Source: an uncultured Peptococcaceae bacterium (GTDB taxonomy: Bacteria > Bacillota > Dehalobacteriia > UBA7702). Taken from it: a DNA stretch of 64,000 nt. The stretch spans positions 11,528-75,527 of the forward strand of contig CAZWWH010000002.1 in NCBI GenBank assembly GCA_964637365.1, written 5' to 3'. How positions within the stretch are numbered: the first letter of the stretch is position 1; every line of letters starts with the position of its first letter. The notes beneath the pieces are model-generated. The model did not search any database. It was not told where the DNA came from and saw only the letters and a list, made by a program, of their open reading frames with translations. Shown in pieces: positions 6,309 to 20,918 of this stretch. The position numbers and the translations under genes are program-made.

Positions 6309-6324
6309 TTTATTAAGTAAATAA

Positions 6325-6585
6325 TGACAAACCTGTGTAAAGTATTGGAATGAGGTGAAATCCCTCAGCGGACGGGCCACTGTGATTGCTTTTTAGCATA
6401 AGCCAGATCTTTGCTTTGCGATATGCTCCCTGTTTCGGCCAATGGACAGTTCCATTGAGGTGTCAGTGAATTTATCCGTGTCGGTGCAACAGGCTGGCAC
6501 GGTTTTATTTTGTACCGAAAAATCACACAAGGTGTTTGATAGAAAAGAATGATTTTCTTATCTGCACCTTGTGTTTTTTTATTCT
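6325..6585 (+). promoter_or_regulatory. Cobalamin (B12) riboswitch with intrinsic terminator
   Basis: Core GGAATGAGGTGAAATCCCTCAGCGGACGGGCCACTGTGA (6355-6395). Partial B12-box AAGCCAGATCTTTGC. Terminator hairpin CACAAGGTG...CACCTTGTG + T7 at 6527-6580. Confidence 0.7.
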
Positions 6586-6955
6586 ACGTATTTTCCAGAC
6601 TGCTTTGGAAATTTTATTGATATATTTTTCCATATTTCATTCATTTGGTTTCTTCCTGAGCACTCTCCAAATCTTACCTTGACCAAATAAGCTTCGATCT
6701 CTTTACCCTATGCTTTTCCCATATCTTATGATAAGCGCCATTGTCGTATTTTCTTGGAATATACGCAATACCTGCTCAGGATGAAATATGATAGGCGCAG
6801 CTTCCGTCCTTTCTGCGCTGCGCCCTCGGTGCTTCCCCGTGGCCAAAAGCCGCGGGGTATGCCCGGATAATTACAAAATGCTATTGTAATTGTACATTTT
6901 GAAATAAATAAGTTTTTGCCGGTAGAAATTAATGCCGGAAATGAAAGGAGATTTT

Positions 6956-8554
6956 ATGAAAAGAATGAAACGATTCATCGCACCCTTACTTGCTCTTGTC
7001 ATGGTAATATCTTTTGCCTTCGGTGTCACAGCCGCCGAAATCAATGCCGATGATGCCTCTAACAGCTATGTTTATCTAACAATGGAGAAATTTACTTTAG
7101 GGCAGGAATGTATTTTTGCACCTATTGCCATTCCCTGGGAGGAGGGAATGACTGCCGCATCCATTCTCGTCGATAAGCTTGGGGACGACAATTATCAATG
7201 CAGTGGCTCTTTAGACGGTGGTGACCTTTACATTTCAGCAGTAAAAGACCCCGATCAAGGTAGTGTTGATATGCCGAAGGTTATTTATGATGCAGTAATG
7301 GGCAGCCAAAATGTAATCTCTGCCCGTAATGAGAAGGAATGGCTCGGAGAGTTTGATTATTACAATGAAAGTGGCTGGATGTTGACGGTGAATGATGATT
7401 TTATTGGCACAAGCTCTGCTGCTCATACATTACAGCCCGGTGACGTTGTCCGTTGGCAATTTACCGTGTATGGCCTTGGTGCTGATTTGGGTAACAGTAA
7501 CGAATCTTTTGGTGGATATGATAAATTAATTGATGCTGCCAACAAAGATGACCTGGTAAAATCCTTGGCAAATGCTACACAAAAAGATACCAACGCATAT
7601 AAAAATGCCTATTCAGTGTTGGTCAATGCTGCGGCAACCCAGGCAGAGGTTGATACTGCAAAGGCCAATTTGGATGCCAATGCTGATGTTCCTTTGAATC
7701 TTTCTTCTTGTGAAAAACAGCACATTATTTTTACGAATGGGCTTCAGTTAAGTGCTACTGAACTTCAACTTGCACCTAAGGAAACTGAAAAATTAACCGC
7801 CGTGGTAACGCCTGACACGGCTAATTTCTCCGAGGTGGTCTGGAAATCTTCAAGAAAAGCTGTCGCCACTGTTTCGGCTGACGGCACTGTAACCGCAGTC
7901 GGTGAGGGGACGGCTAAAATTACCGCTACTACCAAAGATGGCGGAGCATCTGCTGTTTGTGAGGTTACAGTAAAAAAAGATGATGCCCCGGTAGAGATAA
8001 AACTCCCGTTCTCTGATGTTCAGAAAAAGGATTGGTTTTATACTGATGTTCTTTATGTTTACGAGAATGAAATCATGAATGGTGTCAGTAATACTGTGTT
8101 TGGTCCCAATGACGACTTGACCCGTGGTCAATTTGTTGCTATTTTAGGTCGTTATGCTGGGATTAAAGATAGCTCTAAAGGTTCGCCTGCTTCTAAAACC
8201 TTCGATGATGTGAAAACAACAGAGTACTATGCTTCTCATGTGAAGTGGGCCATAGATCAGGGGATTACTAATGGCGTAAGTGAAAAGAATTTTGCCCCTA
8301 AAGAAAAAATCACTAGAGAACAAATGGCTGCAATGATGTACCGCTACGCAAAGGCGATTGGTGTTACATTACCTGGGGCCGATAGCGACAAGTTTTCTGA
8401 TGACAATAAGATTTCCTCCTATGCTAAGGATGCAGTATATAGCATGAAAGCTGCAGGCATCTTAGGCGGTATGGGGAATAACACTTTTGCGCCTAAGGGT
8501 AATACCACTCGGGCCCAAGCAGCTAAAGTGATTCATGTGTTCATGGAACTGTAA
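6956..8554 (+). CDS. Surface protein: signal peptide + DUF4430 (transcobalamin-like beta domain) + Big_2 + 3x SLH domains
   Basis: Signal peptide MKRMKRFIAPLLALVMVISFAFGVTAA. DUF4430-type motif GEFDYYNESGWMLTVNDD...LQPGDVVRWQFTVYGLGADLG. Big_2 Ig-like segment (7720-7980). Three C-terminal SLH repeats (F.DV..W....I...G...G...F.P....TRAQ). RBS GAAAGGAG. Confidence 0.7.
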   Translation: MKRMKRFIAPLLALVMVISFAFGVTAAEINADDASNSYVYLTMEKFTLGQECIFAPIAIPWEEGMTAASILVDKLGDDNYQCSGSLDGGDLYISAVKDPDQGSVDMPKVIYDAVMGSQNVISARNEKEWLGEFDYYNESGWMLTVNDDFIGTSSAAHTLQPGDVVRWQFTVYGLGADLGNSNESFGGYDKLIDAANKDDLVKSLANATQKDTNAYKNAYSVLVNAAATQAEVDTAKANLDANADVPLNLSSCEKQHIIFTNGLQLSATELQLAPKETEKLTAVVTPDTANFSEVVWKSSRKAVATVSADGTVTAVGEGTAKITATTKDGGASAVCEVTVKKDDAPVEIKLPFSDVQKKDWFYTDVLYVYENEIMNGVSNTVFGPNDDLTRGQFVAILGRYAGIKDSSKGSPASKTFDDVKTTEYYASHVKWAIDQGITNGVSEKNFAPKEKITREQMAAMMYRYAKAIGVTLPGADSDKFSDDNKISSYAKDAVYSMKAAGILGGMGNNTFAPKGNTTRAQAAKVIHVFMEL

Positions 8555-9231: not shown

Positions 9232-12102
9232 TTATGAGGGGACATCAGGATTTTTGTTAGGGCCACGCTTTTGTTTTTTATGGACAATCGTGGCGGTTAT
9301 GATAATGCCTGCTGCAAGTACAATGACTACAATAGAGCCAATGGCAATCCAACGGTGTTGCTCCCAGAATGATGTTAATTCTTCGGTAACACTATTATTA
9401 CCATGATCTGATTTGGTGTCATCGGTGTCTAACAGTGAACCTGCTTTGGCTCTTTTGGCAATAAAGTAATCACTACAATGCTCAATGATAAATTTCGTTG
9501 CTCCACCTTCGGCTGAAACTTTGTCAATAAATTCGGCCCTCATTTCTTCTGGTACGTAGTAAAAGAGGAGATATTTGCCGTCGGCTAATGATGTCTCCGG
9601 AATTTCAACCAAAGCTGGTCCTGGCATTTCACCTTCATGCATGAAGTGGATGATAAAAGGATCATCCGCTAGCTTACGGATGTTATCTTCGTTTTCACAA
9701 TCTTCTTTGCCAAAATAAATTTGCATATTAAAGTCCATGGGATTTTTGATGTCAGTGCCATTGAACGTAATGACGTAAGATTCCCCATTCTCAGTGGTAC
9801 CATCAAGCACCAAATTGATATTTTTTCCCTTAATTTCTTCAAATACTGATTTGGGTACTATGCCATTAGAAAAGTCGGCGCTGGTATACATGCGCCTTTT
9901 GCCGGAAACTTTCCTTTGAGAGAGAATATAGTCGCCTCCACGGTTTGCTTCGAACGTGGCTTGCATATTTTTGAGTGTTACTCCTACTTTTTCAAAGTCC
10001 TTTTTGGCTGCATTGTAGTAGTACATGGAGTATTTGCTTCCCGTTAAATCGACACTAATGGTGACGGTTGCCTTACCGGGGAATTCACCTTGGTGGGGGA
10101 AGTTCAGATAATAGGCGTCGGAAACAAAATCTCTAATTTCTTGTCCGTTGGCGGGAGTTGTCAGGATTCGGGCATCAAAATCCATGGGATTACTAATTTC
10201 TTTGCCTTTAAACGTGATGGTATATGCGTATTTATTATCGCACACACCTGTAATGGTATATTCCACATCTTTTCCGGAGATTAGTTCGAAAACCTCTTTG
10301 ATGACAATATTCTTTTTCAGGCCTTCGATAATTTTGCGGGCCAATAGTAAATCATCACTATGTTCCAGACTTTTTTGCTCTTTTTCTGAAAGCTTTAAAT
10401 AGCGCTGATAAAGAGCGTCTACCATGTTTTCATCGCTAAGTCTTATATTAATGGGATTGATAGATGCGGCAATATCTGCGTCCAATTTTTTTGCCGCATC
10501 GCTTATCGGATCGTCAGGATTATCCGAGGGATCGTTAATTTTGCTCAATTCTTTGATCTCGTCCAAAAGAATTTGCAGTTTACCGCGGTTGCTGATTTTT
10601 GACTTGTCGCTGCTGTTTAAGAGATTGTATTTTTGAGCGGTATCATAAATACTTTTAATATCTTCTTTCGTGGCGGTTTCCGGTAACTGCTCAATACTTT
10701 TGATGATGCTGTTAATTGTTTCTTCGGAACTGTTCGCTTCTTCTCTGAGATCGAAGAGGGGACGGAATCCATTGACAAAGCGGTAATATGCAACTAAGGC
10801 ATATCTTGCCTGGTCTGTTGCTATATGATTGCTTTCTCCAGCTGTTGCGTTGGAGCTGCCGTCTTTAGAGTAGGAATGAATAAAACCACCGTCTTTGCTG
10901 TTATAGTAGGCCAACAAGCCATCTAAAACAGTTTTTCCATTGTCAGTGATGAATCTTTGATCGCTAAGAGGATCGATCTGTAAGGAGCACAATGCCACCA
11001 GAACTTGAGCAGTGCTTTCTGCGTTGGGTACAGAAATGCTACCAAAGCCACCATCGTCTAGCTGCATTGCGGAAAGACGCGCCAATGCTTCGTCAACAAT
11101 GGTCTTGATCGTTTTCCCATTGGAATATACGGTAGTGGAGTCATAATAGGGAGCCAATGCCTGGAGTACCAAAGCAGTAATATCTGTATCACTGGAAGAA
11201 CTCGATAGAGCAAAACCGCCATCAGATAGTTGCTTAGATATCAAATATTCCAGAATCGCTTCTCTGGTTGTCGTAGCGTTTTCTGGAACCTCATATCGTT
11301 CGGAATCCAATGCGATTAAACCCCATGCCGCGCCATTAATACCTTGTTTCCACATGGGAGTCATGATACTCTGATAGATTCCGTCAGAAACTAAGTTTAC
11401 AGCGCTGCCATTTTTATCTTTCCCGAAGGATTTTGCATCTCTGCCCAAAGCGTTCAATGCCAAAATCGGACGGTGATAGTCGGTAGCTACGCGGTCACTC
11501 AGCCATCCTTTGGTTTGATAGGATTTGGTAACATAGGACTCAAGAGCCGTTAAGTAAGCTTCCGTGTCATCGGGATAACCAAATCTTGCAATGCCAAATG
11601 CCAGCCAATCGCAATCTGTGGTTCCGACACCAGCCAATGAACTTTCATTTAAGGCATAAAAGTTTTCCTGCTTTGACCAGTCAATCGTATTTTTAATGGC
11701 ATTTTCTAAATCATCGCTCAGATTGCGCACCGTACGTAGAGTGCCCGATAATTCCAATGATCCCTCTTCAACTGAACGATTATCGCCTTCCACAGTGGTG
11801 CTTTCAGATGATACGACACTGTGATCGATAATATTGTTGTAACCAGACAAAAATGTACGGAGCTGGAGTGATGTTACGCCTGCGCTATAAATATAGGCTT
11901 GGGAAGTACGTCCTGCCAGTTCGTCATAGCCCACATCCCAAATAAAATGTCCCCTTTGTGTCATGATTTGTTGCAGCGATTGGGCAGTAGTTGTGTCTTG
12001 GGTTTCTTCTTGATTGGATGATTCGTCATTTTTATCTCCACATCCCGTGAAAAAGAGACATAGCGCAAGACACAATACAACAATCAACGAGTGTTTTCTC
12101 AT
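9232..12102 (-). CDS. Large surface lipoprotein: alpha/alpha-toroid (prenyltransferase/terpene-cyclase-like) repeats + two tandem beta-domain repeats + C-terminal TM anchor
   Basis: Lipobox LFFTGCGD. Repeated Q/K.LsDGGF motifs (ISKQLSDGGFALS, AMQLDDGGFGS, YNSKDGGFIHS) typical of PF00432/SQHop-cyclase toroid repeats. Two ~140-aa internal repeats sharing ITF.G..I.NPMDF. C-terminal hydrophobic helix followed by KKQKRGP. RBS AGAGGGAG. Riboswitch directly upstream. Confidence 0.65.
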   Translation of the reverse strand: MRKHSLIVVLCLALCLFFTGCGDKNDESSNQEETQDTTTAQSLQQIMTQRGHFIWDVGYDELAGRTSQAYIYSAGVTSLQLRTFLSGYNNIIDHSVVSSESTTVEGDNRSVEEGSLELSGTLRTVRNLSDDLENAIKNTIDWSKQENFYALNESSLAGVGTTDCDWLAFGIARFGYPDDTEAYLTALESYVTKSYQTKGWLSDRVATDYHRPILALNALGRDAKSFGKDKNGSAVNLVSDGIYQSIMTPMWKQGINGAAWGLIALDSERYEVPENATTTREAILEYLISKQLSDGGFALSSSSSDTDITALVLQALAPYYDSTTVYSNGKTIKTIVDEALARLSAMQLDDGGFGSISVPNAESTAQVLVALCSLQIDPLSDQRFITDNGKTVLDGLLAYYNSKDGGFIHSYSKDGSSNATAGESNHIATDQARYALVAYYRFVNGFRPLFDLREEANSSEETINSIIKSIEQLPETATKEDIKSIYDTAQKYNLLNSSDKSKISNRGKLQILLDEIKELSKINDPSDNPDDPISDAAKKLDADIAASINPINIRLSDENMVDALYQRYLKLSEKEQKSLEHSDDLLLARKIIEGLKKNIVIKEVFELISGKDVEYTITGVCDNKYAYTITFKGKEISNPMDFDARILTTPANGQEIRDFVSDAYYLNFPHQGEFPGKATVTISVDLTGSKYSMYYYNAAKKDFEKVGVTLKNMQATFEANRGGDYILSQRKVSGKRRMYTSADFSNGIVPKSVFEEIKGKNINLVLDGTTENGESYVITFNGTDIKNPMDFNMQIYFGKEDCENEDNIRKLADDPFIIHFMHEGEMPGPALVEIPETSLADGKYLLFYYVPEEMRAEFIDKVSAEGGATKFIIEHCSDYFIAKRAKAGSLLDTDDTKSDHGNNSVTEELTSFWEQHRWIAIGSIVVIVLAAGIIITATIVHKKQKRGPNKNPDVPS

Positions 12103-12214
12103 TTTTTCTCCCTCTTTCAGTCTACCAACACTTGTTTGGCGCTGAATATGATCCTTTTGCGTAATTGTTTACGTGAGCGCTATAATTCTCGGCACGAATC
12201 ATGGAGCGCTTCCA

Positions 12215-12476
12215 TATAAATATAAAAGGGTATGGTAAAAAACCATACCCTTTCGCAATCGAATAGAATTCCAGTGATTCCAAATTTGAATACCTAAATT
12301 TTACAAATCTAGCAAATTCGAATCAAAGATACACCAGATTAACCTTTCTTCAGAAGGCATGGTAAGGTCAACCAAATGTTTTCTGGCTCATGCTAAAACG
12401 CAATCACAGTGGCCGGACCGCTGAGGAATCGCACCTCATTACCATTTTGATTACCTGTTACAATATCAAATTATCT
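12215..12476 (-). promoter_or_regulatory. Cobalamin riboswitch with intrinsic terminator (controls the 956-aa lipoprotein gene)
   Basis: Minus-strand core GGTAATGAGGTGCGATTCCTCAGCGGTCCGGCCACTGTGATTGCG. B12-box-like GAGCCAGAAAAC. Terminator AAGGGTATGGT-ttttt-ACCATACCCTT + TTTTAT (plus 12221-12260). Confidence 0.65.
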
Positions 12477-12482
12477 TAAAAT

Positions 12483-12511
12483 ATTATAATAATACTTGTA
12501 TAAAAAGTCAA
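12483..12511 (-). promoter_or_regulatory. Sigma70 promoter (TTGACT-17-TATAAT) for riboswitch c
   Basis: Near-consensus hexamers with a 17-nt spacer on the minus strand. Confidence 0.5.
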
Positions 12512-12604
12512 TACGAATGGGGGTATGGGTATTGGTCAGCGTTAAGAAAAGGAGGGATTTCCCTCCTTTTCTGTTCTATTAGAAGTATAATACATGGACC
12601 TTAA

Positions 12605-13351
12605 TTAAAGAGTATCTTCCATCCAACTCCCGCCTGGCAGATCTCTGCCTAAATCACAGGTATAATTCCATTCAATCACGTCGCCGGCCTGGACTTGATA
12701 ACGGCTGCAGCCATAATTGGGATACCAACTATTAACACAATACATCCAACCGCTCAAATCGCCACAATCAAATTCATATAAATTATTGATGCCTTCGATA
12801 TATGTGGATCCATACATTGGCGTCCAACTATATTCCATATGGATTTTATTATTCTTAGTTTCGCGAAGAAGGATATCAAAGACAGATTCTCCTTCATAGA
12901 ATGTTACGGTTCTGCGAGAAAGAATTACGCCATCGGAGGGGACAAGGCCTTTTTTGTTAGGGTCTAAATCCTCCATGTTGTCAAGAATGGTGGAGCATTT
13001 AATTGATAATGTACACTTAAGGGATTTCGATTTATCGATTTTTTGGTTTTCAGTATCAACAGGTTTGGGCTTTCCTTCAGGAATCGGGTCCGTGTTGTAT
13101 TTGTCCTTCTGGGAATCAGCATCATAGTTGGTGCTGCTTTCAGCCTTTGAGTATTTGTCATAATCGGTGCTGCTTTCATCAACGTCATCGACGTCAATAT
13201 AGCCATCATCATCTGCTTCTGGCTGGGTTTCTGTTGCCGCAACTTCCTTTTCATTTTTGTCTGCGGATTTATCATCTCCGCAAGCGGTGAGCATTAATCC
13301 CAAACTCAGCATCATAATGAGCAGTAGCATGAATATACTTTTTCGCTTCAT
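12605..13351 (-). CDS. Acidic lipoprotein with C-terminal DUF4430 (transcobalamin-like beta) domain
   Basis: Lipobox LMLTACGDD. Long D/E/S-rich low-complexity linker. C-terminal DUF4430-type motif GDLSGWMYCVNSWYPNYGCSRYQVQAGDVIEWNYTCDLGRDLPG. RBS AAAGGAGGAG before the ATG at 13351. Confidence 0.65.
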   Translation of the reverse strand: MKRKSIFMLLLIMMLSLGLMLTACGDDKSADKNEKEVAATETQPEADDDGYIDVDDVDESSTDYDKYSKAESSTNYDADSQKDKYNTDPIPEGKPKPVDTENQKIDKSKSLKCTLSIKCSTILDNMEDLDPNKKGLVPSDGVILSRRTVTFYEGESVFDILLRETKNNKIHMEYSWTPMYGSTYIEGINNLYEFDCGDLSGWMYCVNSWYPNYGCSRYQVQAGDVIEWNYTCDLGRDLPGGSWMEDTL

Positions 13352-13889
13352 TTTCTGACTCCTCCTTTTATTTTTGCCGTTTCTTATAAAAAAACACAGT
13401 CCTTTCGGTATCTGTGCCAAATGGTCACAGGCACAGAGTAATCACATTTGACATAAAATCAAATGTTTGATATCACCTTGTGCCGATCAGTGACGTCCGT
13501 ATTTCTTTATGATTTAATTTTAACCATTCAGGTCAAAAATGTCAATGGCGAGTGATTGCTATCTCGTAGAAAATTAGCTTTGGGTGATAACAAATTGGAA
13601 TCACCCGCGCGTTGACAAAAAACGGAAATATGCTATTCTTGTCTCATTGAAAGGGACGAACGTATATATTTAAGGTGCCATTATTGTTTCATACTGTGAT
13701 AATGCCGATATCTCAGTATGAAATGGCGCCGAATGATATTTAATAAGGAGGGTCGAGGTAATTTATTGATTTCTTTTAATTGGCGCGCCGAGATTAAGGA
13801 AGTCGTTGCCACATGGATTTATGAGATGTGGCGAGTTTTGTGTTTAGCAGTAAAAGCACCGGCTATGATATTAAGAAAGGTATTATATT

Positions 13890-15158
13890 ATGAAATTAAA
13901 AAGAGTTTTTTGTTGCATTGTCATGATCGGGGCAATGCTGATTTTTGGTTCTTTGGCTGCAATGGCTGCCAACATGGAATCCCCCGTTGAAAAGTTCAAG
14001 GATATTGATACAAAAGCATGGTATATTGATGATGTGGAATATGTTTATGAAAACGGTATTATGAATGGGATGTCCGATACCATGTTTGGGCCAAATCTAG
14101 CGGTGACCCGAGGCCAGTTTGTGACTATGTTGGGACGTCTTGTAGAGATTGATGATTCCAGTTTGGAATCACCCCAAAATACTATTTTTAGTGATGTAAA
14201 ACCGACGTCTTATTATGCATCCCATATTGCGTGGGCTACCGAGTACGGTATTGTCAATGGTATGTCCAGTACAACCTTTGCTCCGGAACAAAAAGTAACC
14301 CGAGAACAAATGGCTACCATGATGGCACGTTTTTCCAAGGTATTCCAAATCTATATTCCTACCAAAGCAGATACCGCCTTTGCTGATGATGCTGCGATCA
14401 GTAAGTATGCGAAGGAAGCGGTATACGGCTTAAAAAATATCGGAATCCTTGATGGTGTTGGCAAAAATATTTTTGACCCCAAGGGGGCTACCACCCGTGC
14501 TGCCGCTGCCAAAGTGATGCACTATTATATGGAATATGAACCTGCTGATACCGCAGTCGTTTCTATTGAAAAATTCACATTGGGTCAGGGGTATATTTTA
14601 GAACCCACGGTTGTTCCTCTTAATAATGAAGCTACGGCTGATAGTGTTCTTCGTGCCGCGGCCAAGGAAGTTGGTATTGATTTGAAGTTCCATGAAAAAT
14701 CTGGTTATCTTACTTTTGTAAAAGATGAGTGCAATGCTCCTCTGAAGATACCTGATTTTATTGCTGATGAGATGGCAAAAGACGAAGTGACGGTTGATAA
14801 TCGTGCAGATGACGCATGGCTTGGTGAATATGATTATACTGCTCAAGCCGGTTGGCTGTATTGGCATAATAATGCCACGGCTTCTACTACTGCTAATCAG
14901 TGTGCCGTCAGCGATGGCGATGTGGTACGTTTCCAATTTTCCATTAGCGGATGGGGTGCTGACTTGGGACGCAGTGATGCTTGGACCGTTGCCTATCGTG
15001 AGTCTGCTAATAAGGATGAATTGATGAAAGCAGTTGCCTGGGCAAATGATACCCAAAGCGAAGCATACGCCAATGCACTGAAAGTGCTCACGAATATCGA
15101 AAGTAGTCAAGAAGCGGTTGACGCGGCCCTAGCTGCCATGCCCTTACTTGCAGATTAA
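13890..15158 (+). CDS. Surface protein: signal peptide + 3x SLH + C-terminal DUF4430 domain
   Basis: Signal peptide with AMAAN cleavage site. Three SLH repeats. DUF4430-type motif GEYDYTAQAGWLYWHNN...VSDGDVVRFQFSISGWGADLG. Paralogous to the C-terminal part of the DUF4430 region in the 6956 gene. Confidence 0.7.
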   Translation: MKLKRVFCCIVMIGAMLIFGSLAAMAANMESPVEKFKDIDTKAWYIDDVEYVYENGIMNGMSDTMFGPNLAVTRGQFVTMLGRLVEIDDSSLESPQNTIFSDVKPTSYYASHIAWATEYGIVNGMSSTTFAPEQKVTREQMATMMARFSKVFQIYIPTKADTAFADDAAISKYAKEAVYGLKNIGILDGVGKNIFDPKGATTRAAAAKVMHYYMEYEPADTAVVSIEKFTLGQGYILEPTVVPLNNEATADSVLRAAAKEVGIDLKFHEKSGYLTFVKDECNAPLKIPDFIADEMAKDEVTVDNRADDAWLGEYDYTAQAGWLYWHNNATASTTANQCAVSDGDVVRFQFSISGWGADLGRSDAWTVAYRESANKDELMKAVAWANDTQSEAYANALKVLTNIESSQEAVDAALAAMPLLAD

Positions 15159-15178: not shown

Positions 15179-15601
15179 ATGGCAAAAATTACTGATGAAG
15201 TTTTGAATGAAATCCGTGCCAGAGCCAAGGAACTGCAACGTGCTCCTATGAAAGCTGAGATGAAGCAAAAGAGATCATACTATGGCGGTTGGAATCATGC
15301 CGTAACCCTCGCTGGTTTATGTCCTTATGATGGTCATCGTCGGGATGAAATCCGTCCTCCTATGAATGGGAAAGAATACACCAATTCCGAGCTATTGTCT
15401 TTTGTGCGTCAGGCAGCAAAAAACAATATTGCTCCGCAAAAACGTGATGTGCCGGAATATCCCTTTATTGAATACCGCTTTGGTCCTTGGGCTAAATTGA
15501 TGAAAAAAATGGGTTATCGTTATTTAAGAGAAGAACAGTCTGATCCGCGTCCTTCCTGGGTGCATACGATTCAGCGGTCAAGAGATGAGAGATTGGCCTA
15601 G
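15179..15601 (+). CDS. Hypothetical cytoplasmic protein (140 aa), co-oriented with the SLH-DUF4430 gene
   Basis: ORF with RBS GAAAGAGGGA, 20 nt after the upstream stop. No recognisable family. Confidence 0.4.
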   Translation: MAKITDEVLNEIRARAKELQRAPMKAEMKQKRSYYGGWNHAVTLAGLCPYDGHRRDEIRPPMNGKEYTNSELLSFVRQAAKNNIAPQKRDVPEYPFIEYRFGPWAKLMKKMGYRYLREEQSDPRPSWVHTIQRSRDERLA

Positions 15602-15722: not shown

Positions 15723-16910
15723 TTATGGATCCATCATACCGTATTTTTTTTTGACACGGTCTAACTTTTCTATCATTGGTTTTGAGAGAATCCAAAGAAA
15801 GAAAAAGGTGGCGACACCATGAACTGCATCAACGGGAATACCTGAAAGATATATGGCCAATGCCCCAGTTTTTTCCGTATTTGTTGTTAGAACTGTCCAT
15901 GTGTTTAATAGCAGCCCATAAATTACTTGTGCGCAGAAATAACCGAAAAAGCAAAGTGGAAGCCGTTTCTTAGAAAGCCAGCCTTTTTTGAATAACACCC
16001 CGGCCAAAAAGCCAATGATACCAAAGGCAAACATTTGCCACGGCGTCCAAGGGCCTTGACCAAAGAAAAAGTTCGAAACAAAAGCCGTCATCGCACCGCA
16101 GAGAAATCCCGCCTCAGCACCCAAACAAACACCGGAAATGGCAACAATTGCCCAAATTGGTTTTACATAGGGAAACATAAAGAAAGCTGCCCGTCCTAAG
16201 ATGGCGATTCCCACCATAACAGCGATGACTACCAGCTCTCTAGCTTCAGGCTTGCGCTGTTCAAAGATCATGAAGAAAGGGATCATCGTTTCAATGATAA
16301 TCATCAAACTGATAAAGTAGTATTGACGGTCATTCATAAAGAGGATGCCAAAAGCAATGGTAGCGGGGATAACCACTAGAATAAGGAGTGCAGCCATAGC
16401 CAAACGCTTCTTAACCCGGCGTATTAGAAGCACCATGAAAGCTACCAATAACGCTACGACCATAGCGATACACCCCTGTCCCATGACAAAGGTTGCTTTT
16501 GGATCTACCTGAGTTTTTATGACATGGGAAACATAAAAGTATGTGATAAAAACGAATACTACAGCTAAAATGGAACTGAAAAAGGTCCAGATGGTATTAT
16601 CACTATTTTTTGTAGCTTTGTTCTTGTTAAAAAGCATGGCCAGGCCAAAGGCCATGGTAATGGTGGTGGCCAATCCCATAATTCTAATGACTGAGATAAG
16701 GGATTTCGCTGTTTCCGGAATTGCTTTTGCAATATCGGATTTATAGAACTTAGTTATAAAATTATAGAGACTGAAGGTAATGGTCTGGTTATCCGCCGTT
16801 ACAGTAATAAAGGGCATTGCTACGCAGACCAGAGCCACGATCAAGGCTGTGCGGGCGATTTCCTTTATGGTATGATTTTCATTTATTTTGTCTGTAAGTT
16901 CTGCTTGCAT
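15723..16910 (-). CDS. ECF-transporter S-component-like polytopic membrane protein, paralog 2 (~11 TM)
   Basis: About 11 predicted TM helices. First 295 codons are nucleotide-identical to the upstream paralog. C-terminal ~100 aa diverge. Last gene of the riboswitch-controlled ECF operon. Confidence 0.55.
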   Translation of the reverse strand: MQAELTDKINENHTIKEIARTALIVALVCVAMPFITVTADNQTITFSLYNFITKFYKSDIAKAIPETAKSLISVIRIMGLATTITMAFGLAMLFNKNKATKNSDNTIWTFFSSILAVVFVFITYFYVSHVIKTQVDPKATFVMGQGCIAMVVALLVAFMVLLIRRVKKRLAMAALLILVVIPATIAFGILFMNDRQYYFISLMIIIETMIPFFMIFEQRKPEARELVVIAVMVGIAILGRAAFFMFPYVKPIWAIVAISGVCLGAEAGFLCGAMTAFVSNFFFGQGPWTPWQMFAFGIIGFLAGVLFKKGWLSKKRLPLCFFGYFCAQVIYGLLLNTWTVLTTNTEKTGALAIYLSGIPVDAVHGVATFFFLWILSKPMIEKLDRVKKKYGMMDP

Positions 16911-16930
16911 AATTCCACGACATCCTCATT
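16027..16930 (-). repeat. Copy B of a ~0.9 kb 100%-identical tandem direct repeat (gene-conversion tract)
   Basis: Identical to 17255-18158, including 20 nt upstream of the start codon. Confidence 0.8.
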
Positions 16931-16944
16931 TATATATTAAAATA

Positions 16945-18138
16945 TTATGATTCCATCATACCGTATTTCTTTTTGATGCGATCTAATTTTTCTATCATTG
17001 GTTTTGAGAGAACCCATAGAAAAAAGAAGGTGGAAATTCCGTAAACCATGTTGACGGGAAAGCCTGAAATATAATAGGCTAAGGGACCTGTGGTGCTAGT
17101 ATCAAAAGCTAAAGTGAAAATTGTACAGGTATCCATAATGAGCCCATAGACAATTAATGCACTAAAAAAGCCAAAGATGCAAAGTGGAAGCCGCTTCTTA
17201 GAAAGCCAGCCTTTTTTAAAGAATATGCCTGCCAAGAAGCCAATAAGCCCTAATGCAAACATTTGCCACGGCGTCCAAGGGCCTTGACCAAAGAAAAAGT
17301 TCGAAACAAAAGCCGTCATCGCACCGCAGAGAAATCCCGCCTCAGCACCCAAACAAACACCGGAAATGGCAACAATTGCCCAAATTGGTTTTACATAGGG
17401 AAACATAAAGAAAGCTGCCCGTCCTAAGATGGCGATTCCCACCATAACAGCGATGACTACCAGCTCTCTAGCTTCAGGCTTGCGCTGTTCAAAGATCATG
17501 AAGAAAGGGATCATCGTTTCAATGATAATCATCAAACTGATAAAGTAGTATTGACGGTCATTCATAAAGAGGATGCCAAAAGCAATGGTAGCGGGGATAA
17601 CCACTAGAATAAGGAGTGCAGCCATAGCCAAACGCTTCTTAACCCGGCGTATTAGAAGCACCATGAAAGCTACCAATAACGCTACGACCATAGCGATACA
17701 CCCCTGTCCCATGACAAAGGTTGCTTTTGGATCTACCTGAGTTTTTATGACATGGGAAACATAAAAGTATGTGATAAAAACGAATACTACAGCTAAAATG
17801 GAACTGAAAAAGGTCCAGATGGTATTATCACTATTTTTTGTAGCTTTGTTCTTGTTAAAAAGCATGGCCAGGCCAAAGGCCATGGTAATGGTGGTGGCCA
17901 ATCCCATAATTCTAATGACTGAGATAAGGGATTTCGCTGTTTCCGGAATTGCTTTTGCAATATCGGATTTATAGAACTTAGTTATAAAATTATAGAGACT
18001 GAAGGTAATGGTCTGGTTATCCGCCGTTACAGTAATAAAGGGCATTGCTACGCAGACCAGAGCCACGATCAAGGCTGTGCGGGCGATTTCCTTTATGGTA
18101 TGATTTTCATTTATTTTGTCTGTAAATTCTGCTTGCAT
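16945..18138 (-). CDS. ECF-transporter S-component-like polytopic membrane protein, paralog 1 (~11 TM)
   Basis: Same architecture as paralog 2. Start overlaps the ecfA 3' end by 28 nt, implying translational coupling. The C-terminal half (ARELVVIAVMVGIAILGRAAF..., GQGPWTPWQ) resembles ECF S-components. Confidence 0.55.
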   Translation of the reverse strand: MQAEFTDKINENHTIKEIARTALIVALVCVAMPFITVTADNQTITFSLYNFITKFYKSDIAKAIPETAKSLISVIRIMGLATTITMAFGLAMLFNKNKATKNSDNTIWTFFSSILAVVFVFITYFYVSHVIKTQVDPKATFVMGQGCIAMVVALLVAFMVLLIRRVKKRLAMAALLILVVIPATIAFGILFMNDRQYYFISLMIIIETMIPFFMIFEQRKPEARELVVIAVMVGIAILGRAAFFMFPYVKPIWAIVAISGVCLGAEAGFLCGAMTAFVSNFFFGQGPWTPWQMFALGLIGFLAGIFFKKGWLSKKRLPLCIFGFFSALIVYGLIMDTCTIFTLAFDTSTTGPLAYYISGFPVNMVYGISTFFFLWVLSKPMIEKLDRIKKKYGMMES

Positions 18139-20699: not shown

Positions 20700-20882
20700 A
20701 TAAAAAAATCCTGCACCGAGCGCAGGACAATAGGGTACCACTGAAACCTCAGTCACGGAAGGCTTGGTAAATACAGCAAACAAAGTTTTCTGGCTTCCGA
20801 GTTTATGGCTCGTATCACAGTGGCCGGACCGCCGGGGAGTCTAACCCCGTTACCTTATGTCATTGCATTTCGATATTTGCTT
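20700..20882 (-). promoter_or_regulatory. Cobalamin riboswitch with intrinsic terminator controlling the ECF operon
   Basis: Minus-strand core GGTAACGGGGTTAGACTCCCCGGCGGTCCGGCCACTGTGATACG. B12-box-like GAAGCCAGAAAAC. Terminator CCTGCGCTCGGTGCAGG + T7 immediately upstream of the ecfT RBS. Confidence 0.6.
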
Positions 20883-20889
20883 TTTAATA

Positions 20890-20918
20890 ATCATAACAAA
20901 TTTTTTCGCTTTGCACAA
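20890..20918 (-). promoter_or_regulatory. Putative sigma70 promoter with extended -10 (TTGTGC-17-TGtTATGAT)
   Basis: Minus-strand hexamers with 17-nt spacer and a TG extended -10 element. Confidence 0.35.

What the first reader, a model, noticed from the sequence alone, without database searches (positions are those of the whole stretch)
12605..13890. Acidic DUF4430 lipoprotein lacking its own B12 riboswitch, and an unexplained structured intergenic region
The 271-aa lipoprotein (12605-13351) has a long Asp/Glu/Ser-rich linker and a C-terminal DUF4430, but no riboswitch upstream. The 540-nt divergent region 13352-13890 instead contains a perfect hairpin TCTGTGCC-N11-GGCACAGA (13411-13437) and a palindrome ATCAAATGTTTGAT (~13470). 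On the plus strand a TTGACA-16-TATTCT promoter is followed by a ~150-nt leader with nested stems (GGTGCCATT...AATGGCGCC enclosing TCATACTG...CAGTATGA). That leader runs upstream of the SLH-DUF4430 gene at 13890. It matches no riboswitch class I recognise. It may be a novel cis-regulatory RNA or a protein-binding leader for this branch of the system.
Basis: seen in the sequence. Interest (0 to 1): 0.55.

Follow-up and report, generated by a model that had tools for sequence, protein, structure and literature searches.

The report
Riboswitch-free control region of B12-binder genes
The 540-base spacer between two vitamin-B12-binder-like surface protein genes is a conserved two-way control region, with back-to-back promoters, a repeated protein-binding palindrome, a stop/go RNA switch before the lipoprotein gene and conserved RNA hairpins before the other gene, and it stands where neighbouring genes carry B12 riboswitches, though what it senses is unknown.

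Summary
Corrections: the lipoprotein is 248 aa, not 271, and the plus leader is about 243 nt, not about 150.

No Rfam family matches the spacer, while every other transcription unit of this B12-uptake island carries a cobalamin riboswitch or a sub-threshold copy.

Only one other lineage shares the gene order (L082 and relatives; proteins 59-80% identical). Against it the spacer is 57% identical overall, with discrete conserved blocks:
- **Promoters.** Two back-to-back sigma-70-type promoters.
- **Operator.** A 21-bp palindrome, GTGATnnCAA-N-TTGGAATCAC, present three times in the window (0.00 expected), all in this gene module.
- **Minus-strand leader.** A terminator / antiterminator / anti-antiterminator attenuator.
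- **Plus-strand leader.** The inner hairpin has 12 pairs, 7 of them compensatory, and an invariant AUGCCGA loop. A second hairpin has a GYGCCGA loop. There is also an SD-like AAGGAGGG.

The RUGCCGA loops are complementary to UCGGCA(C) in the sensor loop of the attenuator. This could be loop-loop cross-talk or chance.

The sensor is unknown, and with two lineages the covariation evidence is thin. This is a candidate new leader, a variant of a known kind.

The parts
12605..13351 (-). DUF4430 lipoprotein gene, 248 aa. It has signal peptide plus lipobox LTAC, an acidic D/E/S linker and a C-terminal DUF4430 domain.
   Evidence: The relative's gene is called at the equivalent ATG.
12545..12572 (-). 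Intrinsic terminator hairpin ending the lipoprotein transcription unit. It reads as a terminator on both strands.
   Evidence: The relative has no stretch aligned with it and no terminator-like site between the two genes.
13517..13545 (-). Promoter of the lipoprotein gene, TTGACA-17-TAAAAT (11 of 12 matches). The predicted start is near 13510.
   Evidence: The same hexamers and spacing occur in L082.
13472..13494 (-). P0 hairpin, the presumed sensor of the attenuator. The arms are GUCAC/GUGAU and the loop is UGAUCGGCACAAG. The loop starts with a YUNR-type CUGA and contains segment 1 (GGCAC, 13484-13480).
   Evidence: The 25-nt block is nearly invariant in the relative.
13441..13471 (-). Window-specific inner hairpin inside the 1:2 helix. 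The relative has a 4-bp hairpin in its place.
13411..13437 (-). Antiterminator hairpin (segments 2:3), UCUGUGCC-N11-GGCACAGA.
   Evidence: I19. Searches give -13.4 kcal/mol. It is conserved in L082 at -15.7 kcal/mol.
13388..13418 (-). Leader terminator (segments 3:4). It has a CACAG...CUGUG stem topped by a GAAA-capped CC/GG extension, followed by U7. It ends 36 nt before the ATG.
   Evidence: -9.2 kcal/mol. In L082 the stem has a different upper part, 12 bp at -14.7 kcal/mol plus U6, and the scan flags it.
13584..13604 (.). Operator O1, the palindrome GTGATAACAA-A-TTGGAATCAC. It lies between the two promoters, 7 bp from the plus-strand -35.
   Evidence: (I12). 19 of 21 positions are conserved in L082.
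13612..13639 (+). Promoter of the SLH-DUF4430 operon, TTGACA-16-TGcTATTCT. The predicted start is near 13647.
13687..13723 (+). HP1, the conserved hairpin. It has an 8-9 bp lower stem, a 1x1 mismatch, a 4-bp upper stem and the heptaloop AUGCCGA (13702-13708).
13745..13752 (+). Shine-Dalgarno-like AAGGAGGG, 137 nt before the start codon. No conserved ORF follows it.
13768..13804 (+). HP2, a 9-bp stem whose loop region contains GCGCCGA (13785-13791). L082 has a hairpin at the same place with unrelated stem sequence and the loop AGUGCCGA.
13806..13845 (+). Terminator-like hairpin UUGCCACAU-N11-AUGUGGCGA followed by GUUUUGUGUUU. It is absent from the relative.
13890..15158 (+). SLH-DUF4430 surface protein gene, 422 aa.
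   Evidence: It is syntenic in L082.
15179..15601 (+). 140-aa HNH_repeat protein gene. It has no signal peptide by inspection and is 80% identical in the relative, the best-conserved protein of the module. It is the candidate regulator.
12274..12294 (.). Operator O2, in the leader of the 956-aa gene. It lies within a 25-nt block that is identical in the relative.
14152..14172 (.). Operator O3, ATGATTCCAG-T-TTGGAATCAC, inside the SLH-DUF4430 coding region. It is found in this lineage only.
12182..12202 (-). Hairpin AUGAUUC-GUGCCGA-GAAUUAU in the 956-aa leader, downstream of that leader's riboswitch terminator. Its loop is fully complementary to UCGGCAC in the P0 loop. It is found in this lineage only.
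12356..12486 (-). Cobalamin riboswitch in front of the 956-aa gene. It lies downstream of the lipoprotein gene, not upstream of it.
   Evidence: 35 bits against a gathering score of 31.5.

Best explanation
**What it is.** The spacer 13352-13889 is the control region of a four-gene module: 956-aa binder <- DUF4430 lipoprotein <- spacer -> SLH-DUF4430 -> HNH_repeat protein. It takes the place that B12 riboswitches hold elsewhere in this island.

**DNA level.**
- Two sigma-70-type promoters fire back to back, with predicted starts about 137 bp apart.
- A dimeric DNA-binding protein binds the 21-bp palindrome O1, which abuts the plus-strand -35.
- The same protein binds O2 in the 956-aa leader and O3 in the SLH gene.
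- I infer that this protein is the module's own 140-aa HNH_repeat protein.

**RNA level, minus strand.**
- The lipoprotein mRNA starts with a leader of about 160 nt that works as a transcription attenuator.
- By folding energy the default state is segment 1 paired with segment 2, plus the 3:4 terminator followed by its U-run. This is premature termination 36 nt before the start codon.
- If a factor holds the P0 hairpin loop (CUGA..UCGGCAC), segment 1 is withheld.

**RNA level, plus strand.**
- The SLH-DUF4430 mRNA has a leader of about 243 nt.
- Two hairpins in it present RYGCCGA loops to a sequence-specific partner.
- An SD-like AAGGAGGG probably binds 30S subunits without initiating translation, as a STAB-SD stabiliser does.

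**Shown in silico:** the elements, their conservation, the compensatory changes and the mutually exclusive pairings.

**Inferred:** the transcription starts, that termination and read-through actually occur, the identity of the DNA-binding protein, and the factor that captures P0. For that factor I rate a protein at about 0.3, an RYGCCGA RNA loop at about 0.2 and a small molecule at about 0.12.
For: **No known RNA family**
- Nothing is found in the spacer of either lineage.
- The other four units of the island have B12 riboswitches or sub-threshold copies.
- Homologues of the lipoprotein gene in L001 and L002 have one directly upstream.

**Conservation pattern**
- Against L082 (flanking proteins 59-71% identical) the spacer is 57% identical overall.
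- The conserved blocks coincide with the elements listed in the summary.
- Both promoters keep their hexamers and spacing.

**Attenuator**
- The terminator's upper stem is rebuilt in L082 while its base and the U-run are kept.
- The 2:3 hairpin and the 1:2 helix are predicted in both lineages.
- Energies for 1:2, 2:3 and 3:4 are -23.4, -13.4 and -9.2 kcal/mol in the window. In L082 they are -19.7, -15.7 and -14.7.

**Plus-leader hairpin and palindrome**
- HP1 has 12 pairs, 7 compensatory, 100% of cells paired, and 0 of 500 shuffles reach the observed covariation score. Slid controls give 29-44% paired.
- The palindrome has 3 matches at <= 3 mismatches in 64 kb against 0.00 expected, all in the module. 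No further match appears even at <= 5 mismatches.
- O2 lies in a block identical over 25 nt in both lineages.

**Other**
- The HNH_repeat protein is 80% identical between lineages.
- No conserved small ORF is present in either leader.
Against: - Only two independent lineages exist. The 15 further loci of the relative add 7 SNPs in 505 nt, none in the hairpins, which is little information.
- The pairs of the 1:2, 2:3 and lower 3:4 helices never vary, so they give no covariation evidence.
- The window's terminator is weak: 5 Watson-Crick pairs plus 2 G-U pairs at its base, -9.2 kcal/mol. The simple scan did not flag it.
- No transcript data exist, so the starts are consensus predictions.
- O1 in L082 has 4 mismatches to the ideal palindrome, and O3 is absent there.
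- O2 lies in transcribed sequence and could act as RNA instead.
- The HNH_repeat protein model was poor (pLDDT 52), so DNA binding is not supported structurally.
- HP2 in the window can also fold so that GCCGA is buried in a small inner stem.
Confidence: 0.6

Rival explanations
1. Loop-loop cross-talk between RNAs. The RYGCCGA hairpin loops act in trans. They are HP1 and HP2 of the divergent SLH leader, plus the GUGCCGA hairpin in the 956-aa leader of this lineage. They kiss the UCGGCA(C) in the P0 loop of the nascent lipoprotein leader, withhold segment 1 and cause antitermination. In the window the 956-aa hairpin is made only when the B12 riboswitch reads through. That would pass the B12 signal on to a gene that has no riboswitch of its own.
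For: - The only complement of 7 nt or more between plus and minus leaders that both lineages share is UGCCGAU (HP1 loop) with AUCGGCA (P0 loop).
- Each lineage also has one loop fully complementary over 7 nt (GUGCCGA with UCGGCAC). It is the 956-leader hairpin in the window and HP2 in L082.
- Both partners sit in predicted hairpin loops.
- The P0 loop opens with CUGA, a YUNR U-turn motif. Such motifs are described for rapid antisense loop contacts (PMC4152353).
- RUGCCGA heptaloop hairpins occur 3 times in the window against 0.22 expected, P(>=3) = 0.002. All three are in the B12 island.
- Segment 2 (GUGCC) resembles the loops, so the loops would compete with it for segment 1.
Against: - Only 6-7 bp are involved, and a 7-mer complement between two leaders of this size is expected about twice by chance.
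- The enrichment test was made after the motif had been seen.
- HP2 in the window reads GCGCCGA, which leaves only 5 contiguous pairs.
- The 956-leader hairpin is absent from the relative.
- The contact would have to form within the short time of leader transcription.
- No experiment bears on it, and a protein that binds RYGCCGA loops explains the plus-strand loops equally well.
Confidence: 0.2
2. The minus leader is a small ligand-sensing riboswitch. The P0 loop pairs with segment 2 to form an H-type pseudoknot that a small molecule stabilises. The ligand could be a corrinoid-related compound or a metal. This favours the terminator, giving an OFF switch that replaces the B12 riboswitch.
For: - The leader stands where orthologues carry a Cobalamin riboswitch.
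- A block of about 25 nt is nearly invariant (UCACUGA..UCGGCAC.A.GUGAU), which is more than the helices alone require.
- The architecture is that of a typical expression platform.
- The relative's whole module has no Rfam riboswitch, so some other sensor is needed.
Against: - The conserved core is very small and consists of a single hairpin.
- No multi-stem junction is present.
- No other examples turned up in 80 homologous loci or in JGI metagenomes.
- Known B12 aptamers are far larger.
Confidence: 0.12
3. There is no signal-responsive RNA. The plus leader is only an mRNA-stabilising 5' UTR, with hairpins and a STAB-SD, as is common for abundant surface proteins. The minus-leader terminator is a constitutive leaky attenuator that sets a low expression level. 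All regulation comes from the palindrome-binding transcription factor.
For: - AAGGAGGG is conserved far from any usable start codon and no conserved ORF follows it. This fits STAB-SD (Agaisse and Lereclus 1996, cited in PMC3997798).
- The operator evidence is the strongest statistic of the study.
- No switch was found in the plus leader.
Against: - Stabiliser hairpins need no invariant loop, yet the AUGCCGA loop is invariant while 7 of 12 stem pairs changed.
- HP1 starts 28-40 nt from the predicted 5' end, not at it.
- The three-way alternative pairing and the invariant P0 loop are not needed for a constitutive terminator.
Confidence: 0.2
4. The plus-strand nested-stem structure (13674-13730) is the aptamer of a new riboswitch that controls the SLH-DUF4430 gene through the downstream hairpin and U-tract.
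For: - The structure is present and stable, at -26.5 kcal/mol.
- No known family matches it.
- A terminator-like hairpin follows at 13806-13845.
Against: - The outer stem and the terminator-like hairpin are not conserved in the relative.
- No alternative pairing links HP1 or HP2 to the terminator or to the SD in both lineages.
- The weak Lysine hit (17.5 bits) is not reproduced in L082.
- A single hairpin with a 7-nt loop makes a poor ligand pocket.
Confidence: 0.08

Closest known systems
Cobalamin-riboswitch-controlled B12 uptake and binder operons (Rfam RF00174, RF01482)
   Same: - The gene families are the same: DUF4430 and SLH surface binders, a transcobalamin-like large protein and an ECF transporter.
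- The position is the same, a 5' leader ending in an intrinsic terminator.
- Neighbouring units and homologues of the lipoprotein gene use this riboswitch.
   Different: - No aptamer is detectable at E <= 10 on either strand in either lineage.
- The leader upstream of the terminator is only about 85-90 nt.
Factor-dependent terminator/antiterminator leaders of Firmicutes (trp-TRAP, pyr-PyrR, bgl/sac-LicT/SacY, T-box)
   Same: - A promoter is followed by a leader of 100-250 nt.
- A terminator lies just before the RBS.
- A mutually exclusive antiterminator shares the terminator's 5' arm, and an upstream element decides between them.
   Different: - None of their signatures is present: no GAG/UAG repeats, no RAT, no PyrR loop, no T-box sequence and no Stem I. 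This comes from reading the sequence and from the absence of an Rfam hit.
- The deciding element is a 5-bp hairpin with a 13-15 nt loop.
Antisense-RNA-mediated attenuation and kissing-loop control on plasmids (pT181, pIP501, pAMbeta1; ColE1 RNAI/RNAII; R1 CopA/CopT) - from my own knowledge
   Same: - Complementary hairpin loops of about 7 nt are present.
- One loop carries a YUNR U-turn.
- The proposed outcome is a choice between terminator and antiterminator in a nascent leader.
   Different: - Those antisense RNAs are read from the opposite strand of the same DNA and are fully complementary to their target. Here the two transcripts are divergent, do not overlap and share only 6-7 nt.
- The predicted effect here is antitermination, not termination.
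- The interaction is untested.
STAB-SD 5' UTR stabiliser (Bacillus thuringiensis cryIIIA)
   Same: An SD-like GGAGG element lies about 120-140 nt upstream of the start codon and has no associated ORF.
   Different: - The function is not tested.
- The element sits between two hairpins that have conserved loops.

Membership tests
Cobalamin riboswitch clan CL00101 (RF00174, RF01482, RF01689) | Covariance-model score at or above the gathering threshold, including the B12-box core. | tested here: not met
   No clan member is reported for 13300-13950 on either strand, even at E <= 10. The same holds for L082 2400-4100. In the same window the models find four copies elsewhere.
Lysine riboswitch RF00168 | Score of at least 30 bits, with the five-stem architecture kept in relatives. 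| tested here: not met
   The score is 17.5 bits with E = 0.033 for a 651-nt search, and large parts of the model are deleted. There is no hit in the relative.
Intrinsic-terminator transcription attenuator (leader with terminator and antiterminator) | A stem-loop followed by a U-run, inside the 5' leader, on the sense strand, upstream of the RBS. | tested here: met
   In the window the element spans 13418-13388 and ends in U7. L082 has a 12-bp stem plus U6, which the scan flags.
Intrinsic-terminator transcription attenuator (leader with terminator and antiterminator) | An alternative hairpin that uses the terminator's 5' arm, plus a further upstream partner for that hairpin's 5' arm. | tested here: met
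   The 2:3 hairpin (I19) and the 1:2 helix are predicted in both lineages. All of these pairs are invariant, so there is no covariation.
Intrinsic-terminator transcription attenuator (leader with terminator and antiterminator) | Observed premature termination and conditional read-through. | not testable with these tools
   This needs Term-seq or in vitro transcription.
T-box leader RF00230 | Stem I with a specifier loop, the T-box sequence, and an antiterminator bulge that pairs with tRNA NCCA. | tested here: not met
   There is no Rfam hit at E <= 10. The leader upstream of the terminator is only about 85-90 nt, and no conserved bulge is present in the 2:3 hairpin.
ANTAR two-hairpin target | Two tandem hairpins with hexaloops (A at position 1, G at position 4), the second overlapping a terminator, and an ANTAR protein nearby. 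The features are recalled from my own knowledge. | tested here: not met
   The loops are 7, 8 and about 10 nt long. HP2 does not overlap the terminator-like hairpin. No ANTAR domain is found in the 20 neighbouring proteins scanned.
Dimeric transcription-factor operator | An inverted repeat of fixed geometry that recurs near co-regulated promoters more often than chance and is conserved in relatives. | tested here: met
   Three 10+1+10 sites are found at <= 3 mismatches against 0.00 expected, all in the module. O1 and O2 are present in the relative. Binding itself is not testable here.
Kissing-loop antisense control | Complementary sequences displayed in hairpin loops of two RNAs. | tested here: met
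   The complement is 6-7 nt and is conserved in both lineages.
Kissing-loop antisense control | A demonstrated RNA-RNA complex with a regulatory effect. | not testable with these tools
   duplexfold on the full leaders was uninformative.
STAB-SD | A sequence in the 5' UTR complementary to the 16S 3' end, not used for initiation. | tested here: met
   AAGGAGGG is conserved and no conserved ORF or start codon lies at a workable distance. The stabilising effect was not tested.

The most novel reading that the evidence does not exclude
In this B12-uptake module the riboswitch signal, or the activity of the divergent promoter, would reach a riboswitch-less gene through short RNA loop-loop contacts. 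Hairpins with RUGCCGA loops occur on the divergent SLH leader. In the window lineage there is also one on the read-through part of the B12-riboswitch-controlled 956-aa leader. They would kiss the UCGGCAC sensor loop of the nascent lipoprotein leader and flip its terminator/antiterminator switch. This would be chromosomal, trans-acting, kissing-loop-driven antitermination between neighbouring transcripts that do not overlap.
Probability: 0.18. Interest if true: 0.8.

Novelty: new variant of a known kind. Interest (0 to 1): 0.5.

Why it matters
B12 uptake genes in Firmicutes are a textbook case of riboswitch control. Here a conserved four-gene binder module has two units without a riboswitch.

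In one lineage no known riboswitch is detected anywhere in the module. Control there appears to rest on a repeated operator, a compact attenuator with an invariant sensor loop, and hairpins with matching loops.

If the sensor is identified, it would show what can replace a B12 riboswitch. It would also give a small, testable attenuator. If the loop complementarity is functional, it would be a rare chromosomal example of kissing-loop control between neighbouring mRNAs.

If the sensor is not found, the region is still a well-defined annotation: promoters, an operator and leader elements for an uncharacterised family of surface corrinoid binders.

Tried and rejected
**RNA family searches**
- Rfam at gathering score on the whole window, and at E <= 10 on the spacer and on the relative, gave nothing in the spacer.
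- The Lysine hit (17.5 bits) is rejected as chance. It is below threshold, heavily gapped and absent from the relative.

**Searches for more examples**
- blastn and nhmmer of the spacer against 80 loci that encode lipoprotein homologues found no similarity.
- Covariance model R1 (HP1 to AAGGAGGG) against 702 kb of held sequence matched only the two source lineages.
- The next-closest lipoprotein homologues (L086, L087) have a different gene order, SLH - 941/957 aa - lipoprotein on one strand. They have no comparable spacer.
- Fifteen more loci of the relative's lineage show only 7 SNPs, too few for covariation.

**Other readings considered**
- Leader peptides and small ORFs: none is conserved. 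The apparent shared 'MITNWNH..' ORF is only the conserved operator and promoter DNA, and its substitutions show no third-position bias.
- A translational switch in which the 5' arm of HP2 sequesters the SD (repeat D3) is not conserved in L082.
- T-box and ANTAR were considered and rejected (see the membership table).
- A dsDNA-site reading of TGCCGA is rejected. The flanking stems change sequence but keep pairing.

**Uninformative runs**
- AlphaFold of the HNH_repeat protein without an alignment gave pLDDT 52, which is unusable.
- RNA duplexfold on the whole leaders was uninformative.

Full report
**1. What is there**

The window is 42% G+C. It carries a B12-uptake island from about 6.3 to 20.9 kb, between housekeeping genes (trpS, scpAB, ytfJ) and a sigma-54 activator with an MttB gene. 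The island holds the following:
- an SLH-Big_2-DUF4430 gene at 6932-8554 (+);
- a Cobalamin riboswitch at 9062-8901 (-) with no ORF behind it;
- a 956-aa gene at 12102-9232 (-), preceded by a Cobalamin riboswitch at 12486-12356;
- the DUF4430 lipoprotein gene at 13351-12605 (-);
- an SLH-DUF4430 gene at 13890-15158 (+), followed by a 140-aa HNH_repeat gene at 15179-15601 (+);
- an ECF-type transporter operon at 20716-15723 (-).

At E <= 1, two further sub-threshold B12 riboswitch copies appear, at 6319-6452 (+) and 20894-20763 (-). Every unit of the island therefore has a B12 riboswitch except the two that diverge from the spacer 13352-13889.

**2. Check of the observation**

- The lipoprotein has 248 aa from the ATG at 13351. 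It has the lipobox LTAC, an acidic linker and a C-terminal DUF4430 domain. The '271 aa' figure comes from the mechanical TTG ORF.
- The hairpin at 13411-13437, the imperfect palindrome at 13458-13471, the promoter at 13612-13639 and the nested stems are all present.
- Rfam finds nothing in the spacer at E <= 10 except a 17.5-bit Lysine match and noise.
- Homologues of the lipoprotein gene in L001 and L002 carry a Cobalamin riboswitch immediately upstream. Five more loci have one further upstream.
- The statement 'lacks its own B12 riboswitch' is correct and is unusual for this gene family.

**3. Comparative material**

- The lineage is rarely sampled. L081 is the same species as the window.
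- Only one other lineage has the same gene order. It is represented by L082, L085 and L113, plus 15 near-identical loci.
- Protein identities between the two lineages are SLH 59%, lipoprotein 71%, 956-aa 69% and HNH_repeat protein 80%.
- There the four-gene module sits in a different genomic place, between HTH_3/HlyIII/RuvC and RecN/ArgR. No Rfam riboswitch hit is found from the start of its 956-aa gene, through the lipoprotein gene and the spacer, to the start of its SLH gene.
- The next-closest homologues have a different, co-linear gene order.
- Sequence searches, a covariance model and a JGI pattern scan found no further examples.
- All conservation arguments therefore rest on two lineages. 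Within the second lineage there are only 7 SNPs in 505 nt, none in the hairpins.

**4. Conserved blocks**

The two spacers are 57% identical over aligned columns. The conserved blocks are discrete and map onto interpretable elements:
- RBS and start of the lipoprotein gene;
- AAAAAACACAG;
- TATCTGTGCC;
- GGCACA;
- GTGCCGATC;
- GTGATAACA..TTGGAATCA;
- CGTTGACAAAAA;
- GAAAT.TGCTATTCT;
- AATGCCGAT;
- AAGGAGGG;
- the RBS region of the SLH gene.

**5. DNA level**

- Both promoters keep their hexamers and spacing in both lineages. The minus-strand promoter is TTGACA-17-TAAAAT. The plus-strand promoter is TTGACA-16-TGcTATTCT.
- Between them, 7 bp from the plus-strand -35, lies the palindrome GTGATAACAA-A-TTGGAATCAC (O1).
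- A search with the idealised 21-mer at <= 3 mismatches finds exactly three sites in 64 kb, against 0.00 expected. They are O1, O2 (12274-12294, in the 956-aa leader) and O3 (14152-14172, inside the SLH gene). No further site appears even at <= 5 mismatches.
- O2 lies in a 25-nt block identical in both lineages. O1 is 19 of 21 conserved. O3 is specific to the window.
- This pattern is that of a dimeric DNA-binding regulator.
- By inference the regulator is the HNH_repeat protein. By inspection of its sequence it has no signal peptide, and it is the best-conserved protein of the module. Its structure model was too poor to use.

**6. Minus-strand leader (lipoprotein gene)**

From a predicted start near 13510 the RNA contains, in order (coordinates):
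- P0, with arms GUCAC/GUGAU and the loop UGAUCGGCACAAG;
- segment 1, GGCAC, inside that loop;
- a lineage-specific inner hairpin;
- segment 2, UCUGUGCC;
- segment 3, GGCACAGA;
- segment 4, CUGUG, followed by U7;
- the RBS, 20 nt further on.

The pairings 1:2, 2:3 and 3:4 are mutually exclusive in the classic way.

| Helix | Window (kcal/mol) | L082 (kcal/mol) |
|---|---|---|
| 1:2 | -23.4 | -19.7 |
| 2:3 (antiterminator) | -13.4 | -15.7 |
| 3:4 (terminator) | -9.2 | -14.7 |

- Taken together, 1:2 plus 3:4 is much more stable than 2:3 alone, so the thermodynamic default is termination.
- The upper part of the terminator is completely different in the two lineages. The window has a CC/GG extension with a GAAA loop. 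L082 has five more base pairs. The base of the stem and the U-run are kept. That is structural conservation.
- The 1:2 and 2:3 pairs are invariant and so give no covariation information.
- The roughly 25-nt P0 block is conserved beyond what the helices need. Its loop begins with CUGA, a YUNR motif (PMC4152353).
- My reading is that P0 is the sensor.
- No conserved leader peptide is present.

**7. Plus-strand leader (SLH-DUF4430 gene)**

- **HP1.** It has 12 pairs, of which 7 changed on both sides and 1 changed on one side. All cells pair, and 0 of 500 shuffles reach the observed covariation score. Slid registers give 29-44% pairing. Its heptaloop AUGCCGA is invariant.
- **HP2** follows at the same relative position in both lineages, with unrelated stem sequences. 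Its loop holds GCGCCGA in the window and AGUGCCGA in L082.
- **AAGGAGGG** lies between the two hairpins and is conserved. No usable conserved start codon follows it. This matches a STAB-SD-type element (Agaisse and Lereclus 1996, via PMC3997798).
- **The terminator-like hairpin** at 13806-13845 exists only in the window.
- I found no alternative pairing conserved in both lineages that would make this leader a switch on its own.

**8. The loop complementarity**

- The only complement of 7 nt or more between the plus and minus leaders that both lineages share is UGCCGAU (HP1 loop) with AUCGGCA (P0 loop).
- L082's HP2 loop adds GUGCCGA with UCGGCAC.
- The window has a third hairpin, AUGAUUC-GUGCCGA-GAAUUAU, in the 956-aa leader downstream of that leader's riboswitch terminator.
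- RUGCCGA heptaloop hairpins occur 3 times in the window against 0.22 expected, with P(>=3) = 0.002. This test is post hoc. All three lie in the island, and one is inside a coding region.
- This fits a model in which these loops compete with segment 2 for segment 1 and cause antitermination.
- Seven-nucleotide complements are common by chance, the window's HP2 fits poorly, and a loop-binding protein is an equally good partner for the plus-strand loops. I rate this model at about 0.2.

**9. Comparison with known systems and verdict**

- The region works like a factor-dependent terminator/antiterminator leader combined with an operator-controlled divergent promoter.
- It is not a member of the cobalamin, lysine, T-box or ANTAR classes. 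Each was tested and the defining features were not met.
- It is a candidate new leader with a very narrow distribution, so I class it as a new variant of a known kind.
The conserved element is the inner hairpin and its loop, not the nested-stem 'aptamer'. The clearest switch is on the other strand, in front of the lipoprotein gene.
- Interest is moderate at 0.5. The architecture is coherent and testable, and it replaces a riboswitch in a riboswitch-rich locus. Two lineages and no transcript data leave the mechanism inferred.

Noticed in passing
window 9062-8600 (-): A strong Cobalamin riboswitch (71 bits) with its own terminator (~8860-8830) has no credible ORF behind it. It runs toward the 3' end of the convergent 540-aa gene. 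The read-through RNA is CU-rich and includes GCCCUCCUUUCU, which is complementary to SD-like sequences such as the conserved AAGGAGGG at 13745-13752. It may be a riboswitch-controlled small or antisense RNA. It is absent from the relative's module.
   Followed up: partly
window 6319-6452 (+) and 20763-20894 (-): Two compact B12-riboswitch-like elements fall below Rfam gathering scores: AdoCbl at 39.2 of 50 bits, and Cobalamin at 27 of 31.5 bits. They share the core GGUCCGGCCACUGUGAU...AGCCAGAAAAC with the 12356-12486 copy. This genome seems to use a short variant that standard thresholds miss.
   Followed up: partly
L082 2534-2769 (= L113 4765-5000): In the relative, the leader of the 956-aa gene has no detectable B12 aptamer. 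It keeps two blocks of the window's leader: CCATGCCTTCT..AGAAAGGTT, which is the 3' edge of the window's riboswitch, and the O2 block. It looks like a decayed or replaced riboswitch.
   Followed up: partly
window 7040-7054 (+): A hairpin AUCA-AUGCCGA-UGAU has the same heptaloop as HP1. It lies inside the coding region of the 540-aa SLH-Big_2-DUF4430 gene, about 90 nt after its likely true start. This could be chance.
   Followed up: no
window 6932-6958: The 540-aa ORF probably starts at the ATG at 6956 (GGAG-N6-ATG, MKRMKRFIAPL... signal peptide), not at 6932.
   Followed up: no
window 9232-12102 (-): The 956-aa riboswitch-controlled protein has no Pfam domain. Its homologues are named terpene cyclase/mutase or prenyltransferase-like by their sources and often carry SLH or DUF4430 domains. 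This suggests an alpha/alpha-toroid corrinoid binder similar to the N-terminal domain of transcobalamin.
   Followed up: no
window 15723-18138 (-): Two tandem paralogous ECF S-component-like genes (395 and 397 aa) each have an N-terminal extension of about 220 aa in front of the transporter domain. The repeated pattern of internal ORFs suggests a recent duplication.
   Followed up: no
L106 and L108 (JGI contigs): The P0 search pattern hit a CRISPR array by chance. Its repeat is GTGCTCAACGCCTTGCGGCATCACTGAATTCGGCAC. It is unrelated to the finding.
   Followed up: no
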